From Escherichia phage 4E8, in the sequence record OQ689734.1: a DNA stretch of 64,000 nt; one strand, 5' to 3'. The notes below the pieces were generated by a model, which did no database searches, was not told where the DNA came from, and worked only from the letters and a program-made list of their open reading frames with translations. This document shows, piece after piece, positions 1 through 57,527 of this stretch (position 1 is the stretch's first letter; every line of letters begins with the position of its first letter). The position numbers and the translations under genes are program-made.

Positions 1-636
1 TTGCCAACAGGTATTGGCTTCTACAGTCAAGATGTTTCCCCATTCCCAGGAGGTAACGGAGCACCATACCCCTATGCAGAAATCATGACAATATCAGAAG
101 GAGGTCGTGGTGGCAATTGGTCTCAGATTGGTTTCTCTACTATTACCCACCAAGCTCCTCGGTATCGTCAAAGAACTAATGACCCAGCTTTGATCACTAA
201 CTGGAGAGACTTCTTGGTCAGAGACTTAAACACAACTGTGGATGTTAACGGTTTTGTTAAAATAGCATCCCCTATTGTCAAGCTTAAACCAGACGGCTCC
301 TCTGAAGTTAATGATCAAGCACAAGGCGTAATCACAGAAAGATTAGATGTTGGTGTTTATAAGATCTCTGGAGTCTTAGGTTTTAACTCCGACCCTTCTT
401 GGGGTGGTAATGGGGGTGGATTCTCTATTCCTCAAAACTCTAATGGACTTCCTTTACTGTGGGTGGATTATGAAGTGGATGAAGAAGGTGATATTACTCT
501 GAAAACTTATCATCGAACTCACGAGGGAGTTCCTTCTTTTGCAAGTAATGTAATAGAAGGTGTGGTGGATGGAGAACCTGTTGACATTCCAGAAGGACGT
601 TGGGTAGATCTTCGTGTAGAGATGCCAACCGAGTAA
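1..636 (+). CDS. virion/tail-fibre-like protein, C-terminal fragment (5' end outside window)
   Basis: ORF open at window edge; Gly/Asn-rich sequence; directly upstream of tail fibre genes. Confidence 0.5.
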   Translation: MPTGIGFYSQDVSPFPGGNGAPYPYAEIMTISEGGRGGNWSQIGFSTITHQAPRYRQRTNDPALITNWRDFLVRDLNTTVDVNGFVKIASPIVKLKPDGSSEVNDQAQGVITERLDVGVYKISGVLGFNSDPSWGGNGGGFSIPQNSNGLPLLWVDYEVDEEGDITLKTYHRTHEGVPSFASNVIEGVVDGEPVDIPEGRWVDLRVEMPTE

Positions 637-645
637 ATTAACAAT

Positions 646-664
646 GCTCCCTTCGGGGAGCTTT
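646..664 (+). terminator. UUCG-tetraloop hairpin, terminator-like
   Basis: gctccc-ttcg-gggagc stem-loop followed by TTT, then RBS AAGGAG of next gene. Confidence 0.4.
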
Positions 665-676
665 AAGGAGATTTAA

Positions 677-2863
677 ATGTCTAGAGAATTAATGCCCAAA
701 TCTGGGATAATGATGCCTCATGTTGTTATTAACCGAGATGCTGCAGTAGTGGGTGTATCTACTGTAGATGGGGCCGCTGGTGCTATCAACTTAACAGAAA
801 AATACCTTCAGAAGTCTGACGCTGAAGCAACCTATCAAACGAAAGCAGAAGGGGCTACTAAGCAATATGTAACCGACGCTATCAACCCCATTATGACAAA
901 TGCTCTTTTTAAAGATGACCCCTTTGTTAATAATGACACACCTATTCGCTCTGGCGGTGGTAATGGTGTTGAATCGGTAGATATGATTAAAGTCACCCCT
1001 GAGAACACCATCAAACTAGGGAGCTATGCTTCTTCTGTTCAGGGGGTTGAGATTCATTCTGCTGGTCGTCTTCAGGTTGTTGATCAGAACGATTCTGGAG
1101 TCGAAACTAAATATCCGGTATACTCCAAAAGATATCGCCCAGAAGTTGAGGATTTACCTTTCGCTTCAATTGGCTCCTATGTTAAAGACTCCAAAGGACG
1201 CACAATTGGTGTAACTCGTACTGGTATCAACTCTGATATCAAACAGTTTACGCAGAAGGTAACTTTCCAGCAACCTGTTACTATTCCTGATGCTGTAGGT
1301 GATTATGATGCAGTTACACTAAGACAGCTTCGTAACAGTGGTGGAGGTTCTGGTGGTCCTACCATGAGCGGTATCTCCAACTTTGGTATTGGTGATTTCC
1401 ATCTTCGTGATAGTCGTGCTTTTATCCCAGCTTTTGAAGTGTTATCTGACGGTCAGCTTCTAAATCGTGCAGACTATCCGGACCTGTGGGCTTATGCTCA
1501 ACTGCTATCCCCAATAACTGATGAGGATTGGCGCTCTTCTATGTATAATAGAGGTAAATATTCCACTGGTGATGGTTCTACTACTTTCCGCGTTCCTGAC
1601 AGGAATGGTATCCAAAGGAGTGGTGTTAATGGTTTTGTTGGGGAAGACTCTCTGGGAGCGCTGTATGGTCGAGGTGATGGTGGAGCTTCGGCTGCGAACG
1701 GTCTGGTATTTGATTCAGCTGCACCAAACATCTACGGCAACATTGGCGGCGTGGTAGCCTATGGGCAGACTGGTGCTATCGTCAGGGGGCAGGAAGAAAT
1801 GGCTTTGGCACCACAACCCACAACAGGCAATGGTGTTTTAAGAGTAAGTTTGGATGCGTCAAAAGTAAGCCCAATTTATGGTCGGTCAAACAGTGAAATC
1901 ATGGGTCGTAACTTTGTTGGTGTTTGGACTATTCGCGCTCATGGTGGTTTTACTGCTGCTAATACTTCTTGGTCTGTTATTGATAGTGACTCGACAGAGC
2001 CTGCATCCGGAACAGTTGTCAGGGGCGGTAGTGTCAAATCTGAATACAAGATTGGTACAAGCCCAAAATATCAAGCATATCTTCAGGCATATGGGAAAAT
2101 TGGTGGGTTAGCAATTGACCGAGGTGCAGTTCTATCAAACGGGGTACAGGAGTGGTTCTTTAATCAAGATGGGACTTTGTATTTCCCAGACGCAGAGACG
2201 CAAATTGGTACATTAAGGTCTGATGGCGCGTTACATATTAGCGCATACGTCAGGCCAAAGGATATCGTTGTAAATCCATTAAACTCTGTTGGGGTTGCAG
2301 CTTCAGAAAGAAACGCCATCAGAATGATCAACTACGCAAATGTACCAGAAGGGGGTTATATTAACTCAGTTGGTGGCGACTGGTACGACGGAACGTGGAC
2401 CCTCGGTGGGGTTAGGAGTGGTTCAACCTTATTGGACCGTGCACAGCTTAACGTCTATGATGGGCTTAGTGGCAGTGCCTCGTATTTATTCGGTTCTGAC
2501 GGCATAGCAAGGTGTCAGGAATGGCGAAGCACATCTGACGAACGGATTAAAAGCAATATTGAGCGTATCAGTGATCCACTCTCCAAGATGAAAAACATCA
2601 AGGGGGTTACGTGGGTTCTGGAAACCAACGGCTCGGTAGGGTACGGATTCATCGCACAGGACGTAGAGAAGGATTTTCCTGAAGCTGTATCAGAAATAAA
2701 GGCTTCACCAGTCACTCTGCGAGACGGGTCTGTGTTGGACAATGTAAAGTCAGTTAACACCTCGGGAGTTGCTGCTGCGTTGCACCATGAAGCTATTCTT
2801 GAACTTATGAAGCAGGTTGAAGATCTTAAGAAAGAGGTGTCAGAGCTTAAGTCTAGTAAGTAA
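677..2863 (+). CDS. tail fibre with C-terminal intramolecular-chaperone (S74-type autoproteolytic) domain
   Basis: AAGGAG RBS; C-terminal SDERIKSNIE...GVTWV motif typical of self-cleaving tail-fibre/endosialidase chaperone domains; Gly-rich repeats. Confidence 0.8.
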   Translation: MSRELMPKSGIMMPHVVINRDAAVVGVSTVDGAAGAINLTEKYLQKSDAEATYQTKAEGATKQYVTDAINPIMTNALFKDDPFVNNDTPIRSGGGNGVESVDMIKVTPENTIKLGSYASSVQGVEIHSAGRLQVVDQNDSGVETKYPVYSKRYRPEVEDLPFASIGSYVKDSKGRTIGVTRTGINSDIKQFTQKVTFQQPVTIPDAVGDYDAVTLRQLRNSGGGSGGPTMSGISNFGIGDFHLRDSRAFIPAFEVLSDGQLLNRADYPDLWAYAQLLSPITDEDWRSSMYNRGKYSTGDGSTTFRVPDRNGIQRSGVNGFVGEDSLGALYGRGDGGASAANGLVFDSAAPNIYGNIGGVVAYGQTGAIVRGQEEMALAPQPTTGNGVLRVSLDASKVSPIYGRSNSEIMGRNFVGVWTIRAHGGFTAANTSWSVIDSDSTEPASGTVVRGGSVKSEYKIGTSPKYQAYLQAYGKIGGLAIDRGAVLSNGVQEWFFNQDGTLYFPDAETQIGTLRSDGALHISAYVRPKDIVVNPLNSVGVAASERNAIRMINYANVPEGGYINSVGGDWYDGTWTLGGVRSGSTLLDRAQLNVYDGLSGSASYLFGSDGIARCQEWRSTSDERIKSNIERISDPLSKMKNIKGVTWVLETNGSVGYGFIAQDVEKDFPEAVSEIKASPVTLRDGSVLDNVKSVNTSGVAAALHHEAILELMKQVEDLKKEVSELKSSK

Positions 2864-2869
2864 TCTAGT

Positions 2870-2887
2870 AGCCCCTTCGGGGGCTTT
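2870..2887 (+). terminator. weak UUCG-tetraloop hairpin
   Basis: agcccc-ttcg-ggggct followed by short T stretch. Confidence 0.3.
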
Positions 2888-2957
2888 AGTAGTAAGTATG
2901 TTCAAGAAGTAATGAAACTACTATATCACAAAAGGAATACACATAGGAGATACGAAG

Positions 2958-3176
2958 ATGAAAATGATGAAACAAATTAGTTATGGGTTAGCTTGTGTTG
3001 CTACCGGTTTTGCTGTGTCAGTGGCTGTCCCTGTTAATGCAGTGCACCCCCTGGTCACGCAACCTGCACCAATCGAGAAGTTAAGTGCATCTTGTAAGCA
3101 GCGTACAATTCAGAATAACCTTGTGGTTATCTGTCCGGACTCTGATTCTAGTGCTCTGAGAAACATGCTTCAGTAA
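2958..3176 (+). CDS. small secreted or membrane-anchored protein (possible holin-like partner of endolysin)
   Basis: RBS GGAGA; N-terminal hydrophobic segment ISYGLACVATGFAVSVAVPVNA; immediately upstream of lysozyme. Confidence 0.5.
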   Translation: MKMMKQISYGLACVATGFAVSVAVPVNAVHPLVTQPAPIEKLSASCKQRTIQNNLVVICPDSDSSALRNMLQ

Positions 3177-3206
3177 TTTAGGGCTGACTGGAAAGGGAGG
3201 TGAGAA

Positions 3207-3698
3207 ATGGATAATGTCGCATTGCCACCGATACAACTGAGCTTAAGCCCAGACGGGATGGAATTCATCATGAAGCATGAAGGTATGAGAACTCGTGCTT
3301 ACCAAGATTCCGCAGGTATCTGGACGATATGTGTTGGGGCTACGCGCGATATGAATGGGTATCCAGTAAGACAAGGATTAACGTATTCTATAGAGGATTG
3401 TCTAGCTCTGCTAGATAGAGACACACAAGACTCTGTTCGTGCTACTCAGAAAAATATAAGAGTTCCTATGTTAGCTCACGAGTTTGATGCTGTCACTTCT
3501 TTCAATTTTAATGTTGGTGGTGGTGCTCTTTCAACCTCAAAACTTAGGAAAGTAATCAACGGGGACGTAAAGGGTGATGTTTATTCAGAGTTCTTACGTT
3601 GGGATAAGATAACTGTTAAGGGTGTAAAACAGCAGAGTCCGGGGCTTCACAATCGTAGGGTTGCAGAAGCAGACCTATACACCACAGGAAAATATTAA
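3207..3698 (+). CDS. endolysin, GH24 lysozyme (T4-lysozyme/lambda R-like)
   Basis: RBS GGGAGG; motif HEGMRTRAYQDSAGIWTICVG matches catalytic Glu / Asp / Thr region of phage lysozymes. Confidence 0.8.
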   Translation: MDNVALPPIQLSLSPDGMEFIMKHEGMRTRAYQDSAGIWTICVGATRDMNGYPVRQGLTYSIEDCLALLDRDTQDSVRATQKNIRVPMLAHEFDAVTSFNFNVGGGALSTSKLRKVINGDVKGDVYSEFLRWDKITVKGVKQQSPGLHNRRVAEADLYTTGKY

Positions 3699-3710
3699 TG
3701 GAGGTGCCTT

Positions 3711-4514
3711 TTGGCTATCGAAACAACTGCGGTAGTTACTACCGATTTAAACCCTCTGTACCCACGGGACAGGGATTATCTTTATGAAGGGGCTGCCCAG
3801 ATACGACTGGTCAAACAAGTATTAATTAACACCTTTCCTAACATCACAGAGCCAGTTCAACTTGACTCAGATTCTTTCAACATCTTAGCAAACAAGGTTT
3901 CCTTTACTGGAGATTCTATGGATGTTGGAGGTTTGACGATCAAAAACTTAACTCCGGGAACTGGTGATAAAGATGCTGTAACCAAAGGTCAGATGGAAGC
4001 TTTCATGTTAAACTGGATGCAGAATAAACTCTATCGTATTGGGGCTTACTATATCACTGAAGAAGATATCAACCCCGGAGATTCTAGCTCTCTTGGTTTT
4101 GGTTCTTGGGCTAAAGTAACTGGTGTTGTTATGGGTACTGGTGTTGTTAACCCTGATGGCTCTGTTCCTAATGCTCAGCGTGTAGAGTTCCAAGCAGGTG
4201 GTACTGGTGGTCGTGTATTTAACACAATTCGTGCTGACAACATGCCTCTGACTACAATCAATGGTTCTAGTTTTCAAGTTAGTTCTTATTCTCACTCACA
4301 TAATATCACAATGGGTCGTGGAGATGCTAGTGGTCACAACAGCAGTCCTAATTGGTATAGTCCGGGTGGTGGTTATACTCAGGTAACTGACACTAACACC
4401 CACTCTCACTCAATTACAGGTTCTGTTAGTTTTGGACGTGATGATGTATCAAGACAACCTATTAACACTTTGCCGCCTTTCAGAGCAGCGCATATCTGGA
4501 GACGTATTAGCTAA
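3711..4514 (+). CDS. tail fibre tip / receptor-binding protein with HxH repeats
   Basis: TTG start after GGAGGTG RBS; HSHNITMG and THSHSITG HxH motifs as in metal-binding tail-fibre tips. Confidence 0.6.
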   Translation: MAIETTAVVTTDLNPLYPRDRDYLYEGAAQIRLVKQVLINTFPNITEPVQLDSDSFNILANKVSFTGDSMDVGGLTIKNLTPGTGDKDAVTKGQMEAFMLNWMQNKLYRIGAYYITEEDINPGDSSSLGFGSWAKVTGVVMGTGVVNPDGSVPNAQRVEFQAGGTGGRVFNTIRADNMPLTTINGSSFQVSSYSHSHNITMGRGDASGHNSSPNWYSPGGGYTQVTDTNTHSHSITGSVSFGRDDVSRQPINTLPPFRAAHIWRRIS

Positions 4515-4523
4515 GGAGGAACT

Positions 4524-7500
4524 ATGGCGCTTTATCCAATAAAATCTTTAGGGGCTGTAGGGGTTATTGCTGACCAAGCTCCGACTGATTTAGCACCTAA
4601 TGCTTTCACTAATGCTATCAATGCCCGCTTTGTAGAGCAAAGAGTTTTTAAGACGGGGGGCAATGCCCCTCTTTCTTATGTAGAAGAAGATAAAGAGATT
4701 ACACCACTTTCTTTTATATCAATGCCTTTTGACTACTATAGTGCAGGTAATAGCTTTCTGATTGTTGGTACAGACAAAAAGCTATACAAGCTAACAGATG
4801 AAAGTTTGACAGATATTAGCCGAAAGGTTGCTACTGTCACAAAAAGAGCTTCCGCTTCTATTAAGATATATCCGGTTGTTTCTCAGATTGTTCCTAAAGA
4901 AACTTCTATTTCAATGAATTTCAATCAAACTAAAACCTTGGAAGTTTCTATTCTTCCTGAAGATGCTAACAACACAGCTTTAGTTTGGGAGGTTAGTAAT
5001 TCTTCTTATGGTAAAGTAGAAGCTGATACCGAGAACCCTAAAACTGCAACCTTGACGTCTTATGAAAAAGAAGGGAATTTAGTAGTTACTGTATCAACAG
5101 CTGATAAATCTATTAGTGCTCAGATTGCAGTAAACATCATAGACGGTGATTCTGGTATCTTCTTAAGTCAGGATACAATAACTGTCCGCAAAGGTGGTAA
5201 CACAACGCTAACTGCTGTTACTGGAAAAACTCCTGTAACTTGGGTCTCTAGTAATGCTTCTGTTGTGTCTGTAACACCTAATGCTAATACACTGACAGCT
5301 ACTTTGTCTGCTAATGGTGAGGGTACTGTAACAATAACTGCTGATAACGGAACTAAGAGTGCTTCTTGTCAAATTACTGTTATACCTCAGATAGACAGTA
5401 TCACTCTGAGTCAGACAAGCGTTCAAATGAGCAGGGGTACTCAGTATGTTTTAACTGCTACGATTAATCCTTCAGATGCTCCCAATAAAAGCATAACTTG
5501 GACTTCCTCTAATCCTGCCATTGCCACAGTTTCTGGAAATAGTACAGAAGCGGTAATAACAGGGTTACTAGCTGGGTTTACTGAAATCACAGCTGTTACT
5601 CAAGAGGGTGATAGATCAGCAACCTGTACAGTGAGAGTTGATTTAGCTGGGAGAATGATGCGAACTTCTGCAATGGCTTTATCAGAACCTGTTGTAGATT
5701 CTATACAAGAAGAAGAAACCAATAATACTCCTACCGAATCAGAAGAGGTTTTATATTTTGTTAATGAGCCATCTGGAGTTGATACCTCAGGAATGTATGA
5801 AGGTAACAACTTCTATGATTACTCAAACGTCAATGATATGGAAGGTTTTGCACGAGCTGCACTTATGTCCAGCGATACTCCGTTGCAATCTTTATCACTA
5901 GATATCATCGATGCCTCTCTTGATGTTGGGGAAGATATTGTAATTACAGCCAATGCTTTGCCTGAGGGAGAGTATTTCTATCAGTGGACAGTGGACAAAG
6001 CAGGATATGTTTCAACCACATCTACTACCGGGAAATCTCTAAAACTGACAGCTATTCGTAAAGGTGAGATCAAAGTTACTTGTACTGCTAGTCAAATGAC
6101 TCAGAAAGATTATGATGCTTTTGACGACTATCCTTGGTATCACACCATAATCTCTAACTGTGCAGTGGCTACCACTCACTATGAAACACCACAGGTCAAA
6201 GAATTTGAATCTGAGTATTTCGTAGATCTTCCGGGATGGGGTGAGCAAACAGTCGTTGATAATGATGGCAACCCTTCTGTTAAGAAATTTAACTGGAAGT
6301 GTGAGCGTATTCGTGCATTCAACAACAGACTTTTTGCTCTGAATATGAGGGAATCTAATGCATCTGGTGTAACTACTCACTACCCTCTAAGACTTCGGTG
6401 GTCGAATTTCGCTAACGAAAACAAAGCTCCATCTCTTTGGGATGATTATGCTTATGATCGTTTAACAACTTCAGACCTATCAGCAAACATTGTTGGTCAA
6501 ACTGAGGCTTTGGAAAATGGGTACGCTGGGTATATAGATTTAGCAGATTCTAACGGAAGCTTGATTGATGTACTTCCTCTGAAAGATTACCTTTTTGTTT
6601 ACACGGAGTTCGAAACCTACATTGGTTCTCCAACCAATAACACATATCAGCCCCTTATGTTTAAGAAGCTGTTTAATGACTCTGGCATACTTGCTCCTGA
6701 GTGTGCAGTTGAAGTCGAAGGTGGACACTTCGTAGTAACTCAAAATGATGTGATCTTACATAATGGTGCATCTAAAAAATCTATAGCATCTAACCGAGTC
6801 AAGAATCTTCTCATTAATGAGATCTGTCTAGTAAACCCTCTAGCTACTAGAGTTCACCTACACCAAGACAAGAAAGAGGTTTGGGTTTTATATGTAGGTC
6901 CGGGAGAGCCTAAAGAGAGTTTTGCTTGTAATAAAGCCGCTGTTTGGAATTATGAGTTTGACACTTGGTCTTTCCGTACAATACCATATGCTCAGTGTAT
7001 TGGGTTAGTCGATCCACCAGTTCTTGAGAGAGGTCCAATCTGGGCAGATTTTCAAGAGATCACTTGGGATGATCCCTCTATTAACCAATTAGTCTGGAGA
7101 AAGGATGCTAATAACTTCCGTCAAAGGATTACAATAGTTGGCTCTTTCCTGAAGGGATTCTATCAAGTGGATGTTGGTGCTCTGGACTACATCTATGACA
7201 GAACCAATGATAGGATTATAGAAAAACCTTTAGAAATGAGGCTAGAAAGAACTGGTATTGATTTTGATAGTGTCACTAACGAGTGGAATCAAAAACATAT
7301 TAATAGATTTAGACCTCAAGTCACTGGTACGGGTACTTATACTTTTGAAGTCGGTGGAAGTCAATTCTCAAACGAGTATGGACACAATCACTCAACTAAA
7401 GAGTTTAAGGTAGGCTCAGACCGTCATGTATCTGTGAGGCTGAACCATCCATACCTATTCTATAATGTTATAGATAATGATGTTAACAGTAATGCTTCTA

Positions 7501-7544
7501 TGAATGGTTTAACCATAGAGTTTAATGTTGGCGGTCGAAGATAA
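4524..7544 (+). CDS. large tail structural protein with tandem Ig-like (Big_2-type) domains
   Basis: AAGGAGG RBS; repeated ~80-aa T/S/V-rich modules (TVSTADKSISAQIAVNII, TVTITADNGTKSASCQITVI, TAVTQEGDRSATCTVRV). Confidence 0.75.
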   Translation: MALYPIKSLGAVGVIADQAPTDLAPNAFTNAINARFVEQRVFKTGGNAPLSYVEEDKEITPLSFISMPFDYYSAGNSFLIVGTDKKLYKLTDESLTDISRKVATVTKRASASIKIYPVVSQIVPKETSISMNFNQTKTLEVSILPEDANNTALVWEVSNSSYGKVEADTENPKTATLTSYEKEGNLVVTVSTADKSISAQIAVNIIDGDSGIFLSQDTITVRKGGNTTLTAVTGKTPVTWVSSNASVVSVTPNANTLTATLSANGEGTVTITADNGTKSASCQITVIPQIDSITLSQTSVQMSRGTQYVLTATINPSDAPNKSITWTSSNPAIATVSGNSTEAVITGLLAGFTEITAVTQEGDRSATCTVRVDLAGRMMRTSAMALSEPVVDSIQEEETNNTPTESEEVLYFVNEPSGVDTSGMYEGNNFYDYSNVNDMEGFARAALMSSDTPLQSLSLDIIDASLDVGEDIVITANALPEGEYFYQWTVDKAGYVSTTSTTGKSLKLTAIRKGEIKVTCTASQMTQKDYDAFDDYPWYHTIISNCAVATTHYETPQVKEFESEYFVDLPGWGEQTVVDNDGNPSVKKFNWKCERIRAFNNRLFALNMRESNASGVTTHYPLRLRWSNFANENKAPSLWDDYAYDRLTTSDLSANIVGQTEALENGYAGYIDLADSNGSLIDVLPLKDYLFVYTEFETYIGSPTNNTYQPLMFKKLFNDSGILAPECAVEVEGGHFVVTQNDVILHNGASKKSIASNRVKNLLINEICLVNPLATRVHLHQDKKEVWVLYVGPGEPKESFACNKAAVWNYEFDTWSFRTIPYAQCIGLVDPPVLERGPIWADFQEITWDDPSINQLVWRKDANNFRQRITIVGSFLKGFYQVDVGALDYIYDRTNDRIIEKPLEMRLERTGIDFDSVTNEWNQKHINRFRPQVTGTGTYTFEVGGSQFSNEYGHNHSTKEFKVGSDRHVSVRLNHPYLFYNVIDNDVNSNASMNGLTIEFNVGGRR

Positions 7545-7549
7545 CAAAT

Positions 7550-7580
7550 AGGGGCTTCGGCCCCTTTTATTGTTTTTTTT
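7550..7580 (+). terminator. rho-independent terminator
   Basis: aggggc-ttcg-gcccct hairpin followed by TTTTATTGTTTTTTTT. Confidence 0.6.
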
Positions 7581-7594
7581 AATTGGAGGTACTT

Positions 7595-8563
7595 ATGGGT
7601 GCTGGAGGTTTTCGAAAGAATACTGGTAGAAACAACACCACACTTCCGTACAATGTTGGTTTTCTAAACAATGTGCAGGATACAGAAACTTACAACGTTG
7701 CTGTCTATGATGAACTACAAAAAGTTAGTACAGCAACCAATCAAATGTTTCAAGCCATTGATGAAATACATGAAGAAATTGATGTTAGGATTAAAGCTCT
7801 TAATGCGATGAATCTTCAATTTGATGAACTTGAAAATAGAATTACTACAGAGATCGAAACAGCTATTGCTGATATTCAAACACAGATGGGTAACCTATCC
7901 ACTGAAGATATTTGGGATAATTCAGTACAACCGCCAGTTAAGCTAGAAAGTTCTATGGCAGGATTTAAGACCTCTATAGAAGGTAATGAGGTTAAGATAC
8001 AATCTGTTGAGGGAATCGTAAACCAGCAGGGAGAGGAAATTGGCTTAGTTCAAACAGAGATCTCTAATATCAACAGCAGCCTATCTTCTTATATGAAGCT
8101 ATCTGACTACGAGGCTACGTGGGGGGTTAACTCAAATGTCAACGGTAGGTATGCTGGTGTCAAACTAACTAACAATGGCACGAATAGTCAATTCCAAGTA
8201 ACAGCTAACAAGTTTATTGTCGGTGATGGTAACTCTGGTAACACTCCTTTTGTTTTTGAAGGTGGTAGAGCTAGAATGGAATTCGCTGATATCAAGAATG
8301 TCAACATTACAACTGCTCAGATTGCTAATGCTCGAATCCAATTTGCTCAGATTGATAACGTGTGGATTCAAGATGGACAGATTGCTAACCTTACTGCTAA
8401 CAAGATTACTGCTGGCTCTATGTCCGGTTCTAACTGGAGACTTACAGTAGGTGGAGATTTTGTAATGGGTGGTACAGGCGGTTCTCAGTTGTGGATGAAC
8501 GGTAATAGAATAGATTTTTATGATGGGAGTGGAACTCTTCGCATAAGAATAGGGAGTTGGTAA
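7595..8563 (+). CDS. tail fibre-like protein (coiled coil + beta-helix repeats)
   Basis: ATG 5 nt after GGAGGT (ORF track starts at an upstream TTG that lies on the RBS); repeats AQIANARIQFAQIDNVWIQDGQIANLTANKITAG. Confidence 0.65.
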   Translation: MGAGGFRKNTGRNNTTLPYNVGFLNNVQDTETYNVAVYDELQKVSTATNQMFQAIDEIHEEIDVRIKALNAMNLQFDELENRITTEIETAIADIQTQMGNLSTEDIWDNSVQPPVKLESSMAGFKTSIEGNEVKIQSVEGIVNQQGEEIGLVQTEISNINSSLSSYMKLSDYEATWGVNSNVNGRYAGVKLTNNGTNSQFQVTANKFIVGDGNSGNTPFVFEGGRARMEFADIKNVNITTAQIANARIQFAQIDNVWIQDGQIANLTANKITAGSMSGSNWRLTVGGDFVMGGTGGSQLWMNGNRIDFYDGSGTLRIRIGSW

Positions 8564-8564
8564 T

Positions 8565-9599
8565 ATGGCATATGGAATATGGACAAGACCTGTTGGTCCG
8601 GGTCCGGCGGCACCTGCTGACATTTACATCGATAGTGGTAGCACGTTTCCTCAACTCAAGAATAGAGTTAGCGGTAACTTTGCATTTAGTGGAAACATTT
8701 GTGACCTCCCTATAAACGGGTGGGATGGAAGTGGTCAAATAGTTATTGTCCCAACAGGCTCTGTGGTATGGGAAAGATATATACCGCCTAATGTGACCTC
8801 TGACGTATACTGGATAAATAACATCTCAGTTATTAATAACTCTACTTTTCGAGTTACTATGGATTATAATGTTAATGGGTGGATATTTGATATGGCTTTT
8901 AATGTGTATCAGATATGGCCTAGAGCTAATAGAAACTACGGAATTACTTTTTCTAACACAGCTGATTACTTCTCTATTTCTGACTCTGGTACTGTTGGTC
9001 AGTGTATCTGGGCTTGGGAAGGTGACATAAACGGCTCTCTTCAGATACCAGATATTGGAGGTTTTGATATGAGCCGGGCAACTGTTTATGCAAACTGGAG
9101 TCACGGAGGGGCTGGGTTGTTATATAACCCGTCTAACAGGGTTGTTTATGTGTACCAAAACAGGTCTCACGATAACAGTAACACAAACCAAACAGGCTAT
9201 ATTGGTGGTGTTAGGATTGCTGTTTTCTGCGATGGTTCTGGGGTACCAACTCACAACGGTGGCCTAAATATCTTTTCCCCAAATGGGTCTCAGTGCGTAT
9301 TCTCTACCTACAGAACCCCTTTTAGTGTTGAGGGGTTTATGCCTATGAGTGGAGGTAATACATCTCTGGCCTATCCAATGATACCACTGTCTTATGGGGC
9401 TGGGGCTATACGAGGAAGTGCTAGTGGTTGGTACTTTCAACACACAAGATCTCATATGATGAATGGATCTTCTTTTGGGACAGGGTATGGAAGAATGATA
9501 TACTCTTGGTCAAATCGGTATGATCTCGGTGGTGGGGGTGCTCTAGGATTAAGTATTCCGGTATTAGACGCCAAGAAGATTTTTAGAAGCATACAATAA
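8565..9599 (+). CDS. virion structural protein
   Basis: tightly coupled to upstream gene; Asn/Gly/Ser-rich beta-type composition. Confidence 0.6.
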   Translation: MAYGIWTRPVGPGPAAPADIYIDSGSTFPQLKNRVSGNFAFSGNICDLPINGWDGSGQIVIVPTGSVVWERYIPPNVTSDVYWINNISVINNSTFRVTMDYNVNGWIFDMAFNVYQIWPRANRNYGITFSNTADYFSISDSGTVGQCIWAWEGDINGSLQIPDIGGFDMSRATVYANWSHGGAGLLYNPSNRVVYVYQNRSHDNSNTNQTGYIGGVRIAVFCDGSGVPTHNGGLNIFSPNGSQCVFSTYRTPFSVEGFMPMSGGNTSLAYPMIPLSYGAGAIRGSASGWYFQHTRSHMMNGSSFGTGYGRMIYSWSNRYDLGGGGALGLSIPVLDAKKIFRSIQ

Positions 9600-9608
9600 G
9601 GAGAGGAT

Positions 9609-10406
9609 ATGGATAGGATTTTAGGAGTTTCAGAACTAGACCCACTGGTTCAACAAGCTGCTAAGAAGTATGGTATTCCTGCTGCTCTTGTTCATGCGGT
9701 GATTCAGAGGGAGTCTAGTGGTAAACCCTCTGCCGCTTCAGGAACAGGGCCAGTAGGATTGATGCAGATTAGTAAAGGCTTGGCTAAAGATTATGGATAT
9801 AAACTTGAAGATAGGTTAGACCCTGCAAAGAATATTGACATGGGTGCTAGATATTTAAGAGATAACCTGAAAGCTTTTGACGGCGATGTGAGGAAGGCTT
9901 TGGTGGGGTATTCAGAAGGGACTGGTGGTGCTAAGCAAATGTTTGCTGGTAAGAAAGGGTTTACACCTCAAGCTTTAGATTCAATGAATAATAAGCTGTT
10001 CCTACCATTCTTTGATAAGAATACAGCAGCGGCACAAGTGGCTAATCCTGTAGGTGCTTTGAAAGCAGTACAGCCTGTGGACCAGTTTGATTCTAATACG
10101 CTGACTAGAGAAGGTGCTGCAAACGCTCCTACTCAAGCAGAGATAGCTGCAAGCAAGGCTGGAGCTTTAGGTGGTCGTCCTGTAGAGTTTTACTCTGATG
10201 AACAATCTACTGGGGAAAATCAAAAACCTCAACAGAACTTTGGAAATGCTGTATTGGCAGCTGCTTCTATGCTTGCAGGAAAACAGCCTAACTCTCAAAC
10301 CGTACAGAGAGCACATGCCCCTACTCAAGCAGGTTCTCGATACAGTCCACAAACACAAGCCGTGCTGAGACGTTTGTCTAGCATAGGTACTGATATTTAC
10401 AGATAA
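9609..10406 (+). CDS. lytic transglycosylase (SLT domain), probably virion-associated
   Basis: AAGGAGAGG RBS; motif VIQRESSGKPSAASGTGPVGLMQI (catalytic Glu-Ser ... G-x-MQ). Confidence 0.8.
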   Translation: MDRILGVSELDPLVQQAAKKYGIPAALVHAVIQRESSGKPSAASGTGPVGLMQISKGLAKDYGYKLEDRLDPAKNIDMGARYLRDNLKAFDGDVRKALVGYSEGTGGAKQMFAGKKGFTPQALDSMNNKLFLPFFDKNTAAAQVANPVGALKAVQPVDQFDSNTLTREGAANAPTQAEIAASKAGALGGRPVEFYSDEQSTGENQKPQQNFGNAVLAAASMLAGKQPNSQTVQRAHAPTQAGSRYSPQTQAVLRRLSSIGTDIYR

Positions 10407-10415
10407 GGAGGACGT

Positions 10416-11468
10416 ATGTCTCTTTTCGGTTCTGCTCCTAAATCTAAGACTACGGTAGCTCCGTCTTCTCAGGTTGATGCTCTTCTGAAACAGATTGTAG
10501 CAAATGCTCAGGCTATGAATCAAAACGATCAAGGTTTTATTGGTCGTAACGTAGCGGGTTTTAATGAAAACCAAACAGCAGCTCTTTCTAATTTAGCAAA
10601 TTCTAACACACTCAACCAACTCAGTCAGATGTACACCCCTAGAACTCAACAAGGGTTGGACCAGATGAATGAGTTGGCTCAGAAATATCAAAACCTAGTT
10701 AATAAAGGTGGTATCACTGCTCAGGATGTTAATAATTTTAGCTCTGGATTGAATAGCTCTGCTTTAGCTAAGTCTACAGGTAAAGCTGCTGCTAATGTAT
10801 CTCTTGGTAATGGTTCTGATTCAGGTTCTCTTAGACGTGCTGCTGCTCAAGGTGCTGCTCTCTCTTCAGCGAATACAAACCTTTCTCGTTCTATTCAAGG
10901 TAAAAACATGGGTGTTAGCAATCTTATGAATAACAACTCCTATCAGCAAGGTTTGCTCAATGCTCAATCGGGTCTAGCAAATCAGAATCTGAATCTAGGA
11001 GCTGCTGGGGTACAAGCTGGTCAACAGGCAATACAGAATCAGCTCACTGCTGGGAATCTTCAACAACAGCAAGATCAACTCCAATCTAACAACAATTGGG
11101 AGAATGCTATTGGCAATCAGCAGTATGGTTGGAATCGGCTTAACAACCAGCTTAATGTATTAAACTCAGTAAGCCCAATGGCTGGGTACACCATTACTAA
11201 CAAAGGTGCTGCCCCTAATGTTTCACAACAAATCCTTGGTGCTGGGGTTACTGGTCTTGGTATTGCTGGACGTCTAGGTGCTTTTACCCCTAATCAGCAA
11301 ACTACTAATGCTTGGAACTCATACAATGCTTCTGGAGGTCAAGCTGGGATGGCTGGTCCTATGATTGGTGGCTCAAACCTGTCTCAACAGAATGGTCAGA
11401 GCAACTGGTTATCTACCGCAGGAAGTAATATCTTAGGTGGTGTTCTAGGAGCCTTTGGAGCAAATTAA
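10416..11468 (+). CDS. Q/N-rich internal virion protein, paralog 1
   Basis: AAGGAGG RBS; MSLFGSAPKSKTT N-terminus; Gln/Asn-rich; Gly-rich C-terminus. Confidence 0.7.
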   Translation: MSLFGSAPKSKTTVAPSSQVDALLKQIVANAQAMNQNDQGFIGRNVAGFNENQTAALSNLANSNTLNQLSQMYTPRTQQGLDQMNELAQKYQNLVNKGGITAQDVNNFSSGLNSSALAKSTGKAAANVSLGNGSDSGSLRRAAAQGAALSSANTNLSRSIQGKNMGVSNLMNNNSYQQGLLNAQSGLANQNLNLGAAGVQAGQQAIQNQLTAGNLQQQQDQLQSNNNWENAIGNQQYGWNRLNNQLNVLNSVSPMAGYTITNKGAAPNVSQQILGAGVTGLGIAGRLGAFTPNQQTTNAWNSYNASGGQAGMAGPMIGGSNLSQQNGQSNWLSTAGSNILGGVLGAFGAN

Positions 11469-11477
11469 GGAGGAGCT

Positions 11478-12446
11478 ATGGCTTTATTCGGTGGTGGGAG
11501 TAGCAAGACTACTTCTAAAATGACAAGACCTGACTACATTCAGTCCTATATTGATCAGTTGGTCAATCAGGTTAATAACACTAGTTCAGGCGATTATGTG
11601 TATCGAGAAAATGTTGGACTTAATCAAAACCAGCAAGAAGCTCTGAACAATCTATCACAATCTGGTGCATTAGGTGCACTTTCTTCTCAGTATATGGATG
11701 CTGCTCAATCTGGCTTAGGTTATCTAGATAACGCATACTCTGGATATAACAACCTATCTAACTCTGGTCAAATCACTGGAGAACAGATTGGTGCTCTTGC
11801 AGGCCAGCTCTATGACGACGAGGCTGTGCAAGCAGCTATTGCAGCGAATAATGAACAAACCCAACAGAGTTTGGCTAGGAATGCACTTCCTCAAATCTCT
11901 CAGCAGTTTGCTGGTCAGCAAGGTTCTGGTGCACGTATGGCTAAATCTTTTGCTCAGGGTGATGCTCTGAACCAGATGCAGAACACAGCAACTAATATTA
12001 CTAATAGTGCCTATGACTCCGCTCTAACCCAAGCACAGAACATTCTTTCTGGTAATAGACAAACACAAGCATCTGCTTTAGGTGGTTTATCTAACATTGG
12101 CTCCAATCTTGCTAATCTAGGAAACCAAGCTGGTCAGTTATCACAACAGCAAATGATGAATCAGTGGAATGCAGGACTGCAACAGCAGCAACAACAGCAA
12201 TCTGATTTGAACAATGCTTATGAGAATGCTCAGAATGCTGCTAATTGGGGTTGGCAGGATATTAACAATCAACTAGGTGCTGCCGGGGTTCTTAATGGGG
12301 CTTTAGGGACAACCACAACTACTAAAACATCTGGTGGTAGTGGAGGCTTCCTAGGTGGTGCTGCGAGTGGTGCTGCTGCTGGTTCAGCTTTTGGCCCTTG
12401 GGGTGCTTTAGCTGGCGGTGTTATCGGTGGATTAGCTAGCTCTTAA
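11478..12446 (+). CDS. Q/N-rich internal virion protein, paralog 2
   Basis: AAGGAGG RBS; MALFGGGSSKTTS N-terminus aligns with paralog 1 (shared NVAGFNENQ / NVGLNQNQ block). Confidence 0.7.
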   Translation: MALFGGGSSKTTSKMTRPDYIQSYIDQLVNQVNNTSSGDYVYRENVGLNQNQQEALNNLSQSGALGALSSQYMDAAQSGLGYLDNAYSGYNNLSNSGQITGEQIGALAGQLYDDEAVQAAIAANNEQTQQSLARNALPQISQQFAGQQGSGARMAKSFAQGDALNQMQNTATNITNSAYDSALTQAQNILSGNRQTQASALGGLSNIGSNLANLGNQAGQLSQQQMMNQWNAGLQQQQQQQSDLNNAYENAQNAANWGWQDINNQLGAAGVLNGALGTTTTTKTSGGSGGFLGGAASGAAAGSAFGPWGALAGGVIGGLASS

Positions 12447-12460
12447 TTAGGAGAATAATT

Positions 12461-14128: not shown

Positions 14129-14153
14129 TCTAAGACCTAAGTCCTATCTCTTA

Positions 14154-14164
14154 TAATGTATATA
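14154..14164 (+). promoter_or_regulatory. TAATGTATATA motif, candidate phage-sigma-dependent promoter element
   Basis: exact motif ~35 nt upstream of the 1481-aa gene start; same 11-mer recurs at 23855 (+) and 23782 (-), near-copies at 30561 (-) and 35382 (-). Confidence 0.4.
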
Positions 14165-14198
14165 GGAGGTAGGACATTTTTATTTATAAGGAGACGTT

Positions 14199-22211: not shown

Positions 22212-22436
22212 TTAAACTACACAGAACAAATACATTGCTGTGTCAGGACAAGGGATGTGATCACTAGGTTGCCTAATTCTATCCCATTCATCATCTTCTG
22301 CTATATAATAAGCCCAATAAGACTCACCATCGTTGATGAAGAATTTGAATGTTCGTCCCCAAATCTGATTATTATGTTCCCATACTGCATGAAACTGAGT
22401 AACACCTTCTGGTATTGTAAGTTCCGCTCTGATCAT
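22212..22436 (-). CDS. hypothetical protein
   Basis: 74-aa ORF, stop overlaps start of downstream gene. Confidence 0.45.
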   Translation of the reverse strand: MIRAELTIPEGVTQFHAVWEHNNQIWGRTFKFFINDGESYWAYYIAEDDEWDRIRQPSDHIPCPDTAMYLFCVV

Positions 22437-22693
22437 TGTATCCCTCTCTCCTTGAGAGCTTTAAGCAAACCATTGTGGTTAGCGGCACAGGTTGTATAAT
22501 TATCCTGATACCACTCAAGTGTTGTTGCAAATGCCACTCCCTGTGCACTCTGAAGTAAAGGGAGGTCTACATCACACTCAGCTTTTAGGTTTGTTGGTAA
22601 GGGCACTAGCTGCCTGCTGTTGTCGCTCATTGAACAAGCTGACATACTCATCGCTAGCACACACATTGTAAAAAACTGGCTTAGTCTTTTCAT
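22433..22693 (-). CDS. o-spanin (outer-membrane lipoprotein, Rz1-like)
   Basis: signal peptide ending in lipobox-like AMSMSAC; Pro-rich; start embedded in 3' end of the i-spanin gene in another frame. Confidence 0.55.
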   Translation of the reverse strand: MKRLSQFFTMCVLAMSMSACSMSDNSRQLVPLPTNLKAECDVDLPLLQSAQGVAFATTLEWYQDNYTTCAANHNGLLKALKERGIQ

Positions 22694-22925
22694 AATGCAT
22701 CTCTTTGTAAACAGTTTCCGTGTTCTTCTTCCAGTTTGATAAACCAGTTAGAACTTTCTGAGCCACTTCATCAGCAGCCTTAGCTCTCTCAATCTCAATC
22801 TCTTGCTGTTTCTTCTCTTGGTCAAGAGCATTGCTGTCATTTCGATATTGCTCAAACTTGACACCACCAAAGAAAACCAGAGCTGTGAAGATTAAAAAAC
22901 CTATATTGTTTTGAAGCTTTTCCAT
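22578..22925 (-). CDS. i-spanin (Rz-like)
   Basis: N-terminal TM helix IGFLIFTALVFFGG then coiled coil; start at MEKLQ with GGAG RBS (longer track ORF would run into the terminator). Confidence 0.55.
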   Translation of the reverse strand: MEKLQNNIGFLIFTALVFFGGVKFEQYRNDSNALDQEKKQQEIEIERAKAADEVAQKVLTGLSNWKKNTETVYKEMHYEKTKPVFYNVCASDEYVSLFNERQQQAASALTNKPKS

Positions 22926-22934
22926 TTTAACTCC

Positions 22935-34017: not shown

Positions 34018-34203
34018 TTATAGCATACAAAGAATAATAACAAGAGGTAGTGTTATAGCAAAATGTACCAGAACAACACTACCAAGCTTGATAGCTTTAA
34101 CATCCTCTTCTGCTGGGTTTTCTTTAATTGCTAAATTTCGAGCTTTATATATAACAGTACCAACTATTAATGACCACACGGCCCACACAATCAGTGAAAT
34201 CAT
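34018..34203 (-). CDS. small two-TM membrane protein, tandem paralog a
   Basis: IVWAVWSLIVG...KENP...IKLGS pattern shared with the next gene. Confidence 0.5.
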   Translation of the reverse strand: MISLIVWAVWSLIVGTVIYKARNLAIKENPAEEDVKAIKLGSVVLVHFAITLPLVIILCML

Positions 34204-34212
34204 ATCAAACCC

Positions 34213-34434
34213 TTATGCAGTCAACAGGTGGAGAAGGAAAGGAATGACAACAGAGAAAACTACCAGAGCAATGCTACCATGTTTAATAGGTTTAGCATCA
34301 TTCGGATTCTCTTTAAGCATCTGTTTCTGAGCCAGATAAACGATACCACCAACAAGAATTGCCCACACAGACCATACGATTGCTGAAAACATATTCATAT
34401 CCTTATAAAGAAGTTCGCCCCACCTCTTAAACAA
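34213..34434 (-). CDS. small two-TM membrane protein, tandem paralog b
   Basis: IVWSVWAILVG...KENP...IKHGS. Confidence 0.5.
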   Translation of the reverse strand: MFKRWGELLYKDMNMFSAIVWSVWAILVGGIVYLAQKQMLKENPNDAKPIKHGSIALVVFSVVIPFLLHLLTA

Positions 34435-57140: not shown

Positions 57141-57527
57141 TTATTCATGAGCATCATTATTGAACACTAAATCACCACAATACATCGGATTGGTGTACCA
57201 CTTTGGCACCCCCTCGCTCTTACTCTGAAAGTAGGTTCCACTATACAGAGGAACATAGTTCTTCTTGAGAGCACGTCTAGCAAGCTGCTCGCTTTCTCTT
57301 ATGGCTTGTTTAGTCATAGGATTATCATCACGAATCAGCTTTACGTAACGCTTAAAAGGTTTCTCCTTTCTAAGTAATACAGGAATCCACTCAAACTGGT
57401 TCTTTTGTCTTATCACCTGTTCAGCGGTCAGTTTTCGTTGTGACATTCTGTTTATTACGGTATCCGCAACTAATGCTTTACATGCGGTTGGCTGATTCCC
57501 TGCCTCATAATAAATAGTCAATGTCAA
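57141..57527 (-). CDS. SleB/CwlJ-type cell-wall hydrolase domain protein
   Basis: IYYEAGNQPTACKALVADTVINR matches the Hydrolase_2 (SleB) N-terminal signature. Confidence 0.6.
   Translation of the reverse strand: MTLTIYYEAGNQPTACKALVADTVINRMSQRKLTAEQVIRQKNQFEWIPVLLRKEKPFKRYVKLIRDDNPMTKQAIRESEQLARRALKKNYVPLYSGTYFQSKSEGVPKWYTNPMYCGDLVFNNDAHE

What the first reader, a model, noticed from the sequence alone, without database searches (positions are those of the whole stretch)
2958..3698. Lysis functions are dispersed and embedded in the tail module; no classical holin seen
The GH24 endolysin (3207-3698) lies between tail-fibre genes, preceded by a 72-aa protein with a single N-terminal hydrophobic segment (2958-3176). 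A Rz/Rz1-type spanin pair with an embedded o-spanin frame is about 19 kb away on the opposite strand (22433-22925). Two further peptidoglycan hydrolases are present: a virion-type lytic transglycosylase (9609-10406) and a SleB-like hydrolase (57141-57527) in the early region. No multi-TM holin is evident. The 72-aa protein or the tandem two-TM proteins at 34018-34434 are candidates.
Basis: partly seen in the sequence, partly recalled or inferred. Interest (0 to 1): 0.45.

Follow-up and report, generated by a model that had tools for sequence, protein, structure and literature searches.

The report
Known phiEco32-type phage lysis genes
This is the standard lysis gene set of a phiEco32-like E. 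coli phage, whose small gene next to the lysozyme has been labelled "putative holin" since 2008, so the layout is ordinary, although nobody appears to have tested that label.

Summary
The window is a phiEco32-like podophage (Gordonclarkvirinae). One detail is wrong: the spanin pair is overlapped, not embedded.

The layout is already described. The 72-aa gene is annotated "putative holin" in phiEco32, "holin" in RefSeq relatives and "holin class III" in phage Paul. Three papers describe a holin plus lysozyme pair inside the morphogenesis module. I found no experimental test of that label.

What I could add:
- **Narrow family, fixed position.** About 26 sequence clusters, always directly upstream of the GH24 endolysin.
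- **Only late candidate.** It is the only small membrane-type protein in the late gene cluster. A relative's left arm, which the window lacks, encodes no membrane protein.
- **No detectable homology.** It matches no other holin family, including T4 T and RI.
- **Ambiguous N-terminal segment.** It is weakly hydrophobic and ends in an invariant signal-peptidase-like V/T-x-A motif. It also carries a conserved Y9/C13/G17/S21 stripe on one helix face.
- **Conserved C-terminus.** It is a nearly invariant hairpin flanked by two cysteines.

Best reading: an N-in/C-out single-pass holin (about 0.55). A releasable or cleaved periplasmic regulator cannot be excluded. Novelty: already known. Interest: low.

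The parts
2865..2889 (+). Conserved stem-loop (AGCCCC-TTCG-GGGGCT, short U tract) just after the tail-fibre gene and upstream of the lysis cassette
   Evidence: RNA fold -13.9 kcal/mol, z=-2.1. The stem is invariant in 7 relatives, including divergent metagenomic ones. The consensus terminator scan did not call it.
2907..2929 (+). Conserved intergenic block AAGTAATGAAACTACTATATCAC, role unknown
   Evidence: Conserved in all 7 aligned relatives. Unique in the window. Does not match the phage sigma promoter consensus tAATGTAtA.
2958..3176 (+). 72-aa 'putative holin' (phrog_11161). Layout: n-region MKMMKQ; weakly hydrophobic segment 7-28 (YGxxCxxxGxxxS stripe, P-V-x-A end); variable linker 29-40; nearly invariant hairpin 41-61 flanked by C46 and C59.
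3207..3698 (+). Soluble GH24 (T4-lysozyme-type) endolysin, 163 aa, E25/D34/T40, with no signal or SAR (signal-anchor-release) segment
   Evidence: PF00959 E=6e-31. Best PDB relatives 8APP, 7M5I, P22 lysozyme 2ANV and R21 3HDE. Hydropathy.
22578..22925 (-). i-spanin, 115 aa from ATG 22925 (RBS GGAG 22931-22934), with an N-terminal TMD and a periplasmic coiled coil. The GTG at 22949 lies inside the upstream hairpin 22945-22960.
   Evidence: phrog_1152 'Rz-like spanin' E=1.5e-36. Sequence. Paul annotation.
22433..22693 (-). o-spanin, 86 aa, lipobox M-S-A-C20. Overlaps the i-spanin gene by 116 nt and extends 145 nt past its stop.
   Evidence: Paul homologue annotated o-spanin with an SpII site at 19/20. 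Listed as 'overlapped' in PMC6139136.
23784..23792 (-). Exact match to the phage-sigma (phi32 gp36) promoter element TAATGTATA. It lies 60 nt upstream of gene 22984-23724, which precedes the spanins and the sigma gene (21537-22187).
   Evidence: Consensus and positions (genes 6, 13, 26, 40, 58, 68) from PMC8948821. Activity here is inferred, not shown.
14154..14162 (+). Exact TAATGTATA late-promoter element upstream of gene 14199-18644. It marks the next late unit downstream of the one holding the lysis cassette.
   Evidence: The SU10 paper places a promoter between CDS 23 and 24.
9609..10406 (+). Internal virion protein with an SLT lytic transglycosylase domain. It serves entry, not lysis.
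   Evidence: PF01464 E=8e-26. phrog_12507 and phrog_342 'internal virion protein with endolysin domain'. Paul annotation.
57141..57527 (-). Hydrolase_2 (SleB/CwlJ-type) cell-wall hydrolase domain protein in the early region, with no signal sequence. Role unknown.
   Evidence: PF07486 32.4 bits, E=1.5e-7. Conserved in ~98 relatives.
34018..34434 (-). Two tandem two-TM paralogues (61 and 73/59 aa), phrog_9296, in the middle-gene cluster. They are alternative holin candidates.
   Evidence: Single-copy in most relatives.

Best explanation
The window carries the standard lysis system of phiEco32-like phages, split into two units.

Unit 1 lies in the late, phage-sigma-dependent structural operon. 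It is a two-gene cassette wedged between the long tail-fibre gene and the short-fibre gene. It encodes a 72-aa protein followed by a soluble GH24 muramidase with no export signal.

The 72-aa protein most likely stays in the inner membrane as a single-pass protein, with its N-terminus inside and its C-terminus outside. Its helix would self-associate through a conserved small-residue face (Y9/G10-C13-G17-S21). Its small periplasmic hairpin would be stapled by a C46-C59 disulfide. At the end of infection it would permeabilise the membrane and release the endolysin, that is, act as a holin with class III topology.

Unit 2 lies 18.7 kb away on the other strand. It is an overlapped i-spanin/o-spanin pair downstream of a phage-sigma promoter element, in the same unit as the sigma gene. 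It would disrupt the outer membrane once the wall is degraded.

The SLT protein is an ejected virion protein used at entry. The early Hydrolase_2 protein has no assigned lysis role.

Shown: gene identities, synteny, conservation pattern and promoter-motif positions. Inferred: membrane retention, topology, disulfide, hole formation and timing.
For: - **Identity of the phage.** 85-96% nucleotide identity to EP335, Bas89, SU7, UKE3 and HC-25922.
- **Invariant synteny.** The small gene sits immediately upstream of PF00959 and Gp10_C genes in 99 phage records. The same holds in the most divergent metagenomic homologues, at 39-56% identity.
- **Linked inheritance.** The small gene and the lysozyme are both absent from 7-11, GAP52 and Privateer.
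- **The endolysin needs a holin.** It has no hydrophobic N-terminus.
- **Only late candidate.** The 72-aa protein is the only small protein with a hydrophobic segment in the late + strand cluster. Paul's left arm has none.
- **A constrained hydrophobic segment.** Mean entropy is 0.97 in the segment against 1.64 in the linker. Y9, G10, C13 and G17 are invariant down to 39% identity. Conservation has i,i+4 periodicity with permutation p=0.016. A disposable signal peptide would not be expected to show this.
- **Topology.** Two N-terminal lysines and two invariant cysteines flanking the predicted hairpin 47-51/54-58 fit N-in/C-out.
- **Hydrophobicity is compatible.** Its score is in the range of the lambda S holin TMDs.
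- **Transcription.** Promoter elements at 14154(+) and 23784(-) match the published phi32 gp36 consensus and positions.
- **Annotation.** 'Holin' in phiEco32, RefSeq relatives and the Paul record.
Against: - **No experiment found.** The label traces back to position plus one hydrophobic segment.
- **No homology to any holin family.** Pfam and NCBIfam give nothing. hhalign gives 0.15% probability against T4 T. A profile search of 1.84 billion proteins found only two further family members.
- **The segment is weakly hydrophobic.** The Hessa-scale sum is +4.1 here and +3.2 on average for the family, with 37-53% Gly/Ala/Ser/Thr. That resembles the window's own cleavable signal peptides (+3.8 and +4.2) and the T4 RI SAR (signal-anchor-release) domain (+2.2). 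It does not resemble the T4 T or lambda Rz anchors (-1.4 and -2.5).
- **A signal-peptidase-I-like end.** The pattern is P(-4), V/T(-3), variable(-2), invariant A(-1), variable(+1).
- **An atypical C-terminus.** It is not the highly charged tail typical of holins.
- **Weak structure model.** AF2 mean pLDDT is 55.
Confidence: 0.55

Rival explanations
1. The 72-aa protein is a lysis regulator, not the hole-former. Its N-terminal segment would be a weakly hydrophobic signal-anchor-release (SAR) domain, as in the T4 RI antiholin. The conserved periplasmic hairpin would bind a partner. The true holin would be another membrane protein of the phage.
For: - The architecture matches T4 RI feature for feature: a short basic N-terminus, a Gly/Ala/Ser/Thr-rich segment (GAST 0.42 in both), an AXA-like end, and a small periplasmic domain with two cysteines.
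- The weak hydrophobicity is conserved across the family.
- The near-invariance of residues 41-61 suggests binding to a conserved partner.
- Other conserved membrane proteins exist in the genome.
Against: - No sequence homology to RI (hhalign probability 1%).
- No T-like holin with a periplasmic domain was found for it to bind.
- T4 rI is not adjacent to the endolysin gene, whereas this gene always is.
- The crude hydrophobicity scale also scores the genuine lambda S holin TMDs as weak, so it does not discriminate.
Confidence: 0.2
2. The N-terminal 28 residues are an ordinary Sec signal peptide cleaved after V-x-A28. The product would be a secreted ~44-residue disulfide-bonded periplasmic peptide. 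Its job would be something other than forming holes in the inner membrane, such as acting on the envelope, on the spanins, or in superinfection exclusion.
For: - The -4/-3/-1 pattern is invariant, with variable -2 and +1 positions. The n-region is basic.
- The hydrophobic score equals those of the window's clear signal peptides.
- The linker after the putative site is the most variable part and contains indels.
- The phage encodes several other small secreted Cys-rich proteins.
Against: - Y9, G10, C13, G17 (invariant) and S21 (over 90%) lie within the would-be h-region down to 39% identity, on one helix face. That is unexpected for a discarded peptide.
- The uncharged run 6-29 is 24 residues, long enough to span the membrane.
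- The divergent homologue P0026 has no basic n-region.
- The phage would be left with a soluble endolysin and no late-expressed holin candidate.
Confidence: 0.15
3. The two-TM proteins at 34018-34434 (phrog_9296) are the real holin, or a holin/antiholin pair, as the first reader suggested as an alternative.
For: - They are small, with two strongly hydrophobic TMDs (Hessa sums -1.4 and 0.0).
- They are conserved in 97 relatives, about the same distribution as the 72-aa gene.
- The spanins show that lysis genes can sit in the middle-gene cluster.
Against: - They are not adjacent to any muralytic gene. Their neighbours are thioredoxin-like and Dps-like genes.
- They have no charged C-terminal tail. 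The charged loop between the TMDs predicts N-out/C-out, which is not the class II topology.
- The tandem copy is lineage-specific. phiEco32, SU10 and Paul have one copy.
- No annotation or family link to lysis.
Confidence: 0.08

Closest known systems
phiEco32 'putative holin' plus lysozyme cassette (also Paul 'holin class III', and SU10, YF01, EP335, Bas89)
   Same: Same gene family (68-100% amino-acid identity). Same position between the tail-fibre and short-fibre genes. Same endolysin and same overlapped spanins next to the sigma gene.
   Different: Nothing of substance. This genome is a mosaic: the small gene is EP335/Bas89-like and the short-fibre gene is SU7-like.
Phage T4 lysis system (holin T, lysozyme e, antiholin RI, separate spanin genes)
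   Same: Soluble GH24 lysozyme. A candidate holin with one TMD and N-in/C-out topology. Lysis genes scattered around the genome. The holin gene t sits directly after tail-fibre genes 37/38.
   Different: No sequence homology to T. T is 218 aa with a large periplasmic domain and a strongly hydrophobic TMD (-1.4 against +4.1). [quoted passage not shown]
T4 RI antiholin (SAR domain plus small periplasmic domain)
   Same: Size class. A weakly hydrophobic Gly/Ala/Ser/Thr-rich N-terminal segment with an AXA-like end. A small periplasmic domain with two cysteines.
   Different: No homology. rI is not next to an endolysin gene. No T-like partner was identified here.
Lambda S-R-Rz/Rz1 cassette
   Same: The order holin then endolysin, both late-expressed. 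A two-component spanin. Lambda S TMDs are about as weakly hydrophobic on the same scale.
   Different: Lambda S has three TMDs, a charged cytoplasmic tail and a functional dual start. Rz1 is embedded in Rz and contiguous with S and R. Here there is one hydrophobic segment, the second Met is not conserved, and the spanins are overlapped and 18.7 kb away.
JH2/Felix O1-type overlapped i-spanin family (Kongari et al. 2018)
   Same: phiEco32, NJ01, ECBP2 and KBNP1711 are listed in this overlapped i-spanin family. The window's i-spanin hits phrog_1152 at E=1.5e-36.
   Different: None noted.

Membership tests
Holin (functional definition, Young laboratory criteria) | Small protein (about 60-150 aa) with at least one transmembrane domain | tested here: inconclusive
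   72 aa with a 24-residue uncharged segment (6-29). The segment is weakly hydrophobic and ends in a signal-peptidase-like motif, so it could be a stable TMD, a SAR domain or a cleaved signal.
Holin (functional definition, Young laboratory criteria) | Gene adjacent to, and co-expressed with, the endolysin gene | tested here: met
   30-nt gap to the GH24 gene on the same strand. This arrangement is invariant in 99 phage records and in divergent metagenomic loci. Co-expression is inferred from position within the late unit.
Holin (functional definition, Young laboratory criteria) | Highly charged, hydrophilic C-terminal domain | tested here: not met
   The C-terminal 44 residues carry only 4 basic and 4 acidic residues. 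They are predicted to be periplasmic, with a Cys-flanked hairpin. Class III holins such as T4 T also depart from this feature.
Holin (functional definition, Young laboratory criteria) | Lethal, timed permeabilisation of the inner membrane that releases endolysin, and can be triggered early by energy poisons | not testable with these tools
   No experimental report was found in three literature searches or in the papers read.
T4 holin T family (class III, Pfam Phage_holin_T) | Sequence homology to T | tested here: not met
   No Pfam hit at E<=0.01. hhalign probability 0.15%. No such proteins among the hits of the 1.84-billion-protein profile search.
T4 RI antiholin family | Sequence homology to RI | tested here: not met
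   hhalign probability 1.1%, with only the hydrophobic segments aligned.
Sec-type cleavable signal peptide | Basic n-region, hydrophobic h-region, small residues at -3 and -1 | tested here: met
   K2 and K5; segment 7-24; P25-V26-x-A28 with A28 invariant and position 26 always V or T. Actual cleavage was not testable. No SignalP-type predictor was available.
Bacterial lipoprotein (lipobox at C13) | [LVI][ASTVI][GAS]C with an adequate preceding h-region | tested here: not met
   Position -3 is an invariant Gly. Position -1 is A, V, L or I. Only 12 residues precede C13.
GH24 / T4-lysozyme-type endolysin (3207-3698) | PF00959 domain with the Glu-x8-Asp-x5-Thr triad | tested here: met
   107.7 bits against a cut-off of 22.3. 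E25, D34 and T40 read from the sequence. PDB relatives at E down to 4e-28.
Two-component spanin, overlapped architecture | An i-spanin with an N-terminal TMD, plus an o-spanin lipoprotein whose gene starts inside the i-spanin gene and ends beyond it | tested here: met
   Coordinates 22578-22925 and 22433-22693; lipobox MSAC; phrog_1152. The literature agrees.

The most novel reading that the evidence does not exclude
The phiEco32-family 'holin' may not be a conventional holin. It could be a new kind of lysis factor with a marginally hydrophobic, releasable N-terminal helix. The invariant Cys13 in that helix, together with the invariant C46-C59 periplasmic hairpin, could act as a thiol/disulfide switch that times endolysin release. 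This would resemble the Cys13 switch of the P1 Lyz SAR endolysin (recalled from memory, not tested here). In that case the hole-former for a soluble endolysin in this phage group would either be this atypical protein working by a new mechanism, or remain unidentified.
Probability: 0.12. Interest if true: 0.55.

Novelty: already known. Interest (0 to 1): 0.2.

Why it matters
The layout itself adds nothing new. It is the textbook arrangement of phiEco32-like phages and is already in GenBank, RefSeq, PHROGs and several papers.

The useful residue is a caution. The 'holin' label on this family has been propagated into about 100 genomes and into therapy-oriented phage papers. As far as I could find, it rests only on position and one weakly hydrophobic segment. 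That segment looks as much like a cleavable signal or a SAR domain as like a membrane anchor.

A simple expression and fractionation experiment would either validate a compact 72-aa single-TMD holin or show that this phage group's holin is still unknown. A validated holin of this size would be a convenient model and an engineering part.

Tried and rejected
- **Dual-start (lambda S-like M1-K2-M3) antiholin motif.** The window has MKMMKQ, but the second Met is not conserved (MKTTKQ, MKNAKC, MKILKQ, M-IIKQ, MIAKQ). An extra N-terminal charge would not matter for an N-in helix. Rejected.
- **Lipoprotein or unimolecular spanin.** The phrog_812 'Rz-like spanin' hit is weak (E=0.006). The lipobox test fails, the protein is too short to span the periplasm, and a spanin pair already exists. 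Rejected.
- **A dedicated promoter for the cassette.** The sigma-70 scan found nothing upstream. There is no tAATGTAtA element there. The conserved block at 2907-2929 is unique in the window. It starts with GTAATG, like the first element of the phage 7-11 late promoter, but lacks the 16-nt spacing to aCTA. Left unexplained.
- **Hydrophobicity scales as a discriminator.** The crude Hessa sum separates T4 T and lambda Rz anchors from signal peptides. It scores the genuine lambda S TMDs as weakly as the 72-aa segment, so it cannot decide the question.
- **Structure.** The AF2 model is low-confidence (pLDDT 55), so I ran no fold search. The PDB profile search found nothing.
- **Other holin candidates.** Ten further small proteins with hydrophobic segments gave only unknown-function or mislabelled PHROG families, or none.
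- **Primary literature.** The phiEco32 papers (Savalia 2008, Pavlova 2012) are not held in the library. I could not read the original reasoning behind 'putative holin' or the primary transcript mapping.
Full report
**What the window is.** The region 2600-4600 matches 110 phage records, almost all Escherichia or Shigella phages of the subfamily Gordonclarkvirinae (phiEco32-like, prolate C3 podophages). The best matches are EP335 and KarlSchell_Bas89. The middle of the window is 96% identical to HC-25922, UKE3, IME267 and MLP3. Late structural genes occupy the + strand from 1 to 18644. Middle and early genes occupy the - strand from about 18.8 kb to the end. The window's right end coincides with the right end of related genomes. 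Its left end corresponds to about position 12.1 kb of EP335. So the window lacks only the ~12 kb left arm, which holds the terminase, portal, scaffold, capsid, adaptor and first fibre genes.

**Checking the observation.**
- The 72-aa ORF at 2958-3176 has a good ribosome binding site.
- The 163-aa ORF at 3207-3698 is a Phage_lysozyme/GH24 protein (E=6e-31). It has the Glu25-x8-Asp34-x5-Thr40 triad and clear relatives among solved endolysins. It has no hydrophobic N-terminus, so it is a soluble, holin-dependent type.
- Upstream lies a tail fibre with an S74 chaperone domain. Downstream lies a Gp10_C-type short fibre.
- The SLT protein (9609-10406), the Hydrolase_2 protein (57141-57527) and the two two-TM paralogues (34018-34434) are confirmed.
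- The spanin pair is confirmed, but it is overlapped, not embedded. The o-spanin gene (22433-22693, lipobox MSA|C20) begins inside the i-spanin gene and ends 145 nt beyond it. The spanin survey lists phiEco32 the same way.
The upstream GTG lies inside a GC-rich hairpin.

**The layout is already known.** The 72-aa protein belongs to phrog_11161, which is named 'holin'.
- Its homologues are annotated 'putative holin' in the original phiEco32 record.
- RefSeq entries for EP335, SU7, SU10, ECBP2 and others call it 'holin'.
- The Center for Phage Technology annotation of phage Paul calls it 'holin class III', justified there only by BLAST similarity to the phiEco32 entry.

The YF01 paper states that a holin and an endolysin lie in the middle of the morphogenesis module. 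[quoted passage not shown] The SU10 paper notes that both genes are conserved in the phiEco32 subgroup and both are absent from 7-11 and GAP52. None of the papers I could read reports an experiment on this protein. I could not obtain the two primary phiEco32 papers.

**Transcription explains the dispersal.** Phage-sigma (phi32 gp36) promoters consist of the single element tAATGTAtA. In phiEco32 they lie upstream of genes 6, 13, 26, 40, 58 and 68. In SU10 the late ones lie between CDS 3/4, 10/11 and 23/24.

The window has exact matches at two informative places:
- 14154(+), upstream of the 1481-aa gene.
- 23784(-), 60 nt upstream of gene 22984-23724. That gene is followed by a hairpin, the i- and o-spanin genes, a 74-aa gene and the sigma gene.

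By position these correspond to P26 and P40. No such element lies directly upstream of the 72-aa gene. There I found only a conserved hairpin (2865-2889, -13.9 kcal/mol) and a conserved 23-nt block of unknown role. The cassette therefore appears to belong to the late unit that starts at the adaptor gene, outside the window. These assignments are inferred from motif positions and were not measured here.

**What the 72-aa protein looks like.** The family is very small.
- It comprises 24 clusters at 90% identity.
- A profile search of 1.84 billion proteins added only two more divergent representatives.
- It has no Pfam, NCBIfam or PDB match and no profile similarity to T4 T or RI.
- Wherever context could be read, including the 39%- and 56%-identical homologues, the gene sits immediately upstream of a GH24 endolysin gene.

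The 27-sequence alignment shows four zones:
- A short basic N-terminus.
- A hydrophobic segment 7-28. Y9, G10, C13, G17 and A28 are invariant. S21, A23, P25 and V26 are over 90% conserved.
- A highly variable linker 29-40 with indels.
- A nearly invariant stretch 41-61 containing invariant C46 and C59.

The low-confidence AF2 model (pLDDT 55) places a helix at 3-23. It places a hairpin at 47-51/54-58 whose ends are C46 and C59. This fits a disulfide-stapled periplasmic hairpin and an N-in/C-out orientation.

**Anchor, releasable domain or cleaved signal?** The evidence points both ways.

For a functional membrane helix:
- The segment is more constrained than the linker (entropy 0.97 against 1.64).
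- Conservation follows an i,i+4 stripe (Y9-C13-G17-S21-P25), with permutation p=0.016. This is a small-residue face of the kind that mediates helix-helix packing.
- It persists in the most divergent homologues.
- The uncharged run is 24 residues long.

For a signal peptide or SAR (signal-anchor-release) domain:
- The segment is weakly hydrophobic and rich in Gly, Ala, Ser and Thr throughout the family.
- It scores like the window's own cleavable signal peptides and like the T4 RI SAR domain. It does not score like the T4 T or lambda Rz anchors.
- The P-V-x-A end shows conserved -3 and -1 positions with variable -2 and +1 positions, which is the signal peptidase I signature.

The same crude scale also rates the three lambda S holin TMDs as weak, so hydrophobicity alone cannot settle the matter.

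**Other holin candidates.** A six-frame hydropathy scan found that the 72-aa protein is the only small membrane-type protein in the late cluster. No protein encoded in Paul's left arm has a hydrophobic segment.

On the - strand there are about ten small proteins with hydrophobic segments. All fall in unknown-function or mislabelled PHROG families, or in none.
- **The two-TM paralogues.** They are core to the subfamily but single-copy in most members. They lack a charged tail and sit between thioredoxin-like and Dps-like genes.
- **The 101-aa protein at 56646-56951.** It has an N-terminal TMD and a highly charged coiled coil, and lies next to the early Hydrolase_2 gene. The pair is conserved across the subfamily. 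The 101-aa protein gives only a weak 'holin' PHROG hit (E=0.005). Its best PHROG family (phrog_12154, E=1e-51) is labelled 'DNA helicase', a label that does not fit this protein. I did not resolve its role.

**Verdict.** There is indeed no classical multi-TM holin, and the 72-aa protein is the leading candidate. However, this is the long-standing annotation of the phage group, not a new finding.

My best estimate is that the protein is a single-pass N-in/C-out holin (about 0.55). A SAR-type regulator (0.2), a cleaved secreted peptide (0.15) and the two-TM proteins as the holin (0.08) remain as rivals.

The nearest functional analogue is the T4 system. It too has scattered lysis genes, a one-TMD holin gene placed right after the tail-fibre genes and a soluble GH24 lysozyme. 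There is no homology between the holins. Novelty is 'already known' and interest is low. The only open point is that the holin label has apparently never been tested.

Noticed in passing
window 56646-57527 (- strand): The early-region Hydrolase_2 (SleB-type) gene is followed by a 101-aa protein with an N-terminal TMD (11-27) and a highly charged coiled-coil C-terminus. Charge distribution suggests N-out/C-in. The pair is conserved in ~98 relatives. The 101-aa protein is widely annotated 'DNA helicase' (phrog_12154), which looks like a propagated error. It has a weak hit to a holin PHROG (E=0.005). It could be a second hydrolase plus membrane-protein pair of unknown purpose.
   Followed up: partly
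window 2958-4514: A mosaic junction lies inside the lysis cassette. The 72-aa protein is 98.6% identical to EP335 (100% to Bas89) but 70.8% to SU7. The short-fibre protein is 99.6% identical to SU7 but 85% to EP335. The endolysin is ~94% identical to both. The small gene therefore travels with the upstream tail fibre, and the recombination point is in or near the endolysin gene.
   Followed up: partly
L004 4262-4498 (Privateer gp011) and L005 4253-4504 (GAP52 gp098): In the related Grimontviridae phages, which lack the 72-aa gene and the GH24 gene, the same position holds an unrelated 78-83 aa protein with an N-terminal TMD and a coiled coil. That position is just upstream of the Gp10_C-like gene. 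The Privateer paper reports that no holin could be identified. GAP52 labels its copy a virion structural protein.
   Followed up: no
window 2907-2929: A 23-nt intergenic block, AAGTAATGAAACTACTATATCAC, lies between the conserved hairpin and the 72-aa gene. It is conserved even in metagenomic relatives whose small protein is only 54% identical. It is unique in the window and does not match the phage sigma promoter consensus.
   Followed up: partly
window 19024-19596 (- strand): An HNH endonuclease ORF (phrog_3106, E=3e-38) lies near the junction of the late and middle gene clusters. It is likely a homing endonuclease.
   Followed up: no
window 41175-41372, 25523-25702, 51179-51346, 53844-54149, 61725-62102, 62731-63222 (- strand): These are small middle/early proteins with signal peptides or N-terminal anchors. 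Several are Cys-rich, and one has a lipobox (LTGC, 53844-54149). All are in unknown-function PHROGs or none, except 61725-62102, which hits a PHROG labelled 'terminase' that looks mislabelled. They are plausibly envelope-targeted host-takeover or exclusion factors.
   Followed up: partly
window 34018-34434 (- strand): The two-TM protein of phrog_9296 is duplicated in tandem here and in the SU7, UKE3 and ECBP2 lineage. It is single-copy in phiEco32, SU10 and Paul. The upstream copy's TTG-initiated N-terminal extension (14 aa) is probably an artefact of taking the first possible start codon.
   Followed up: partly
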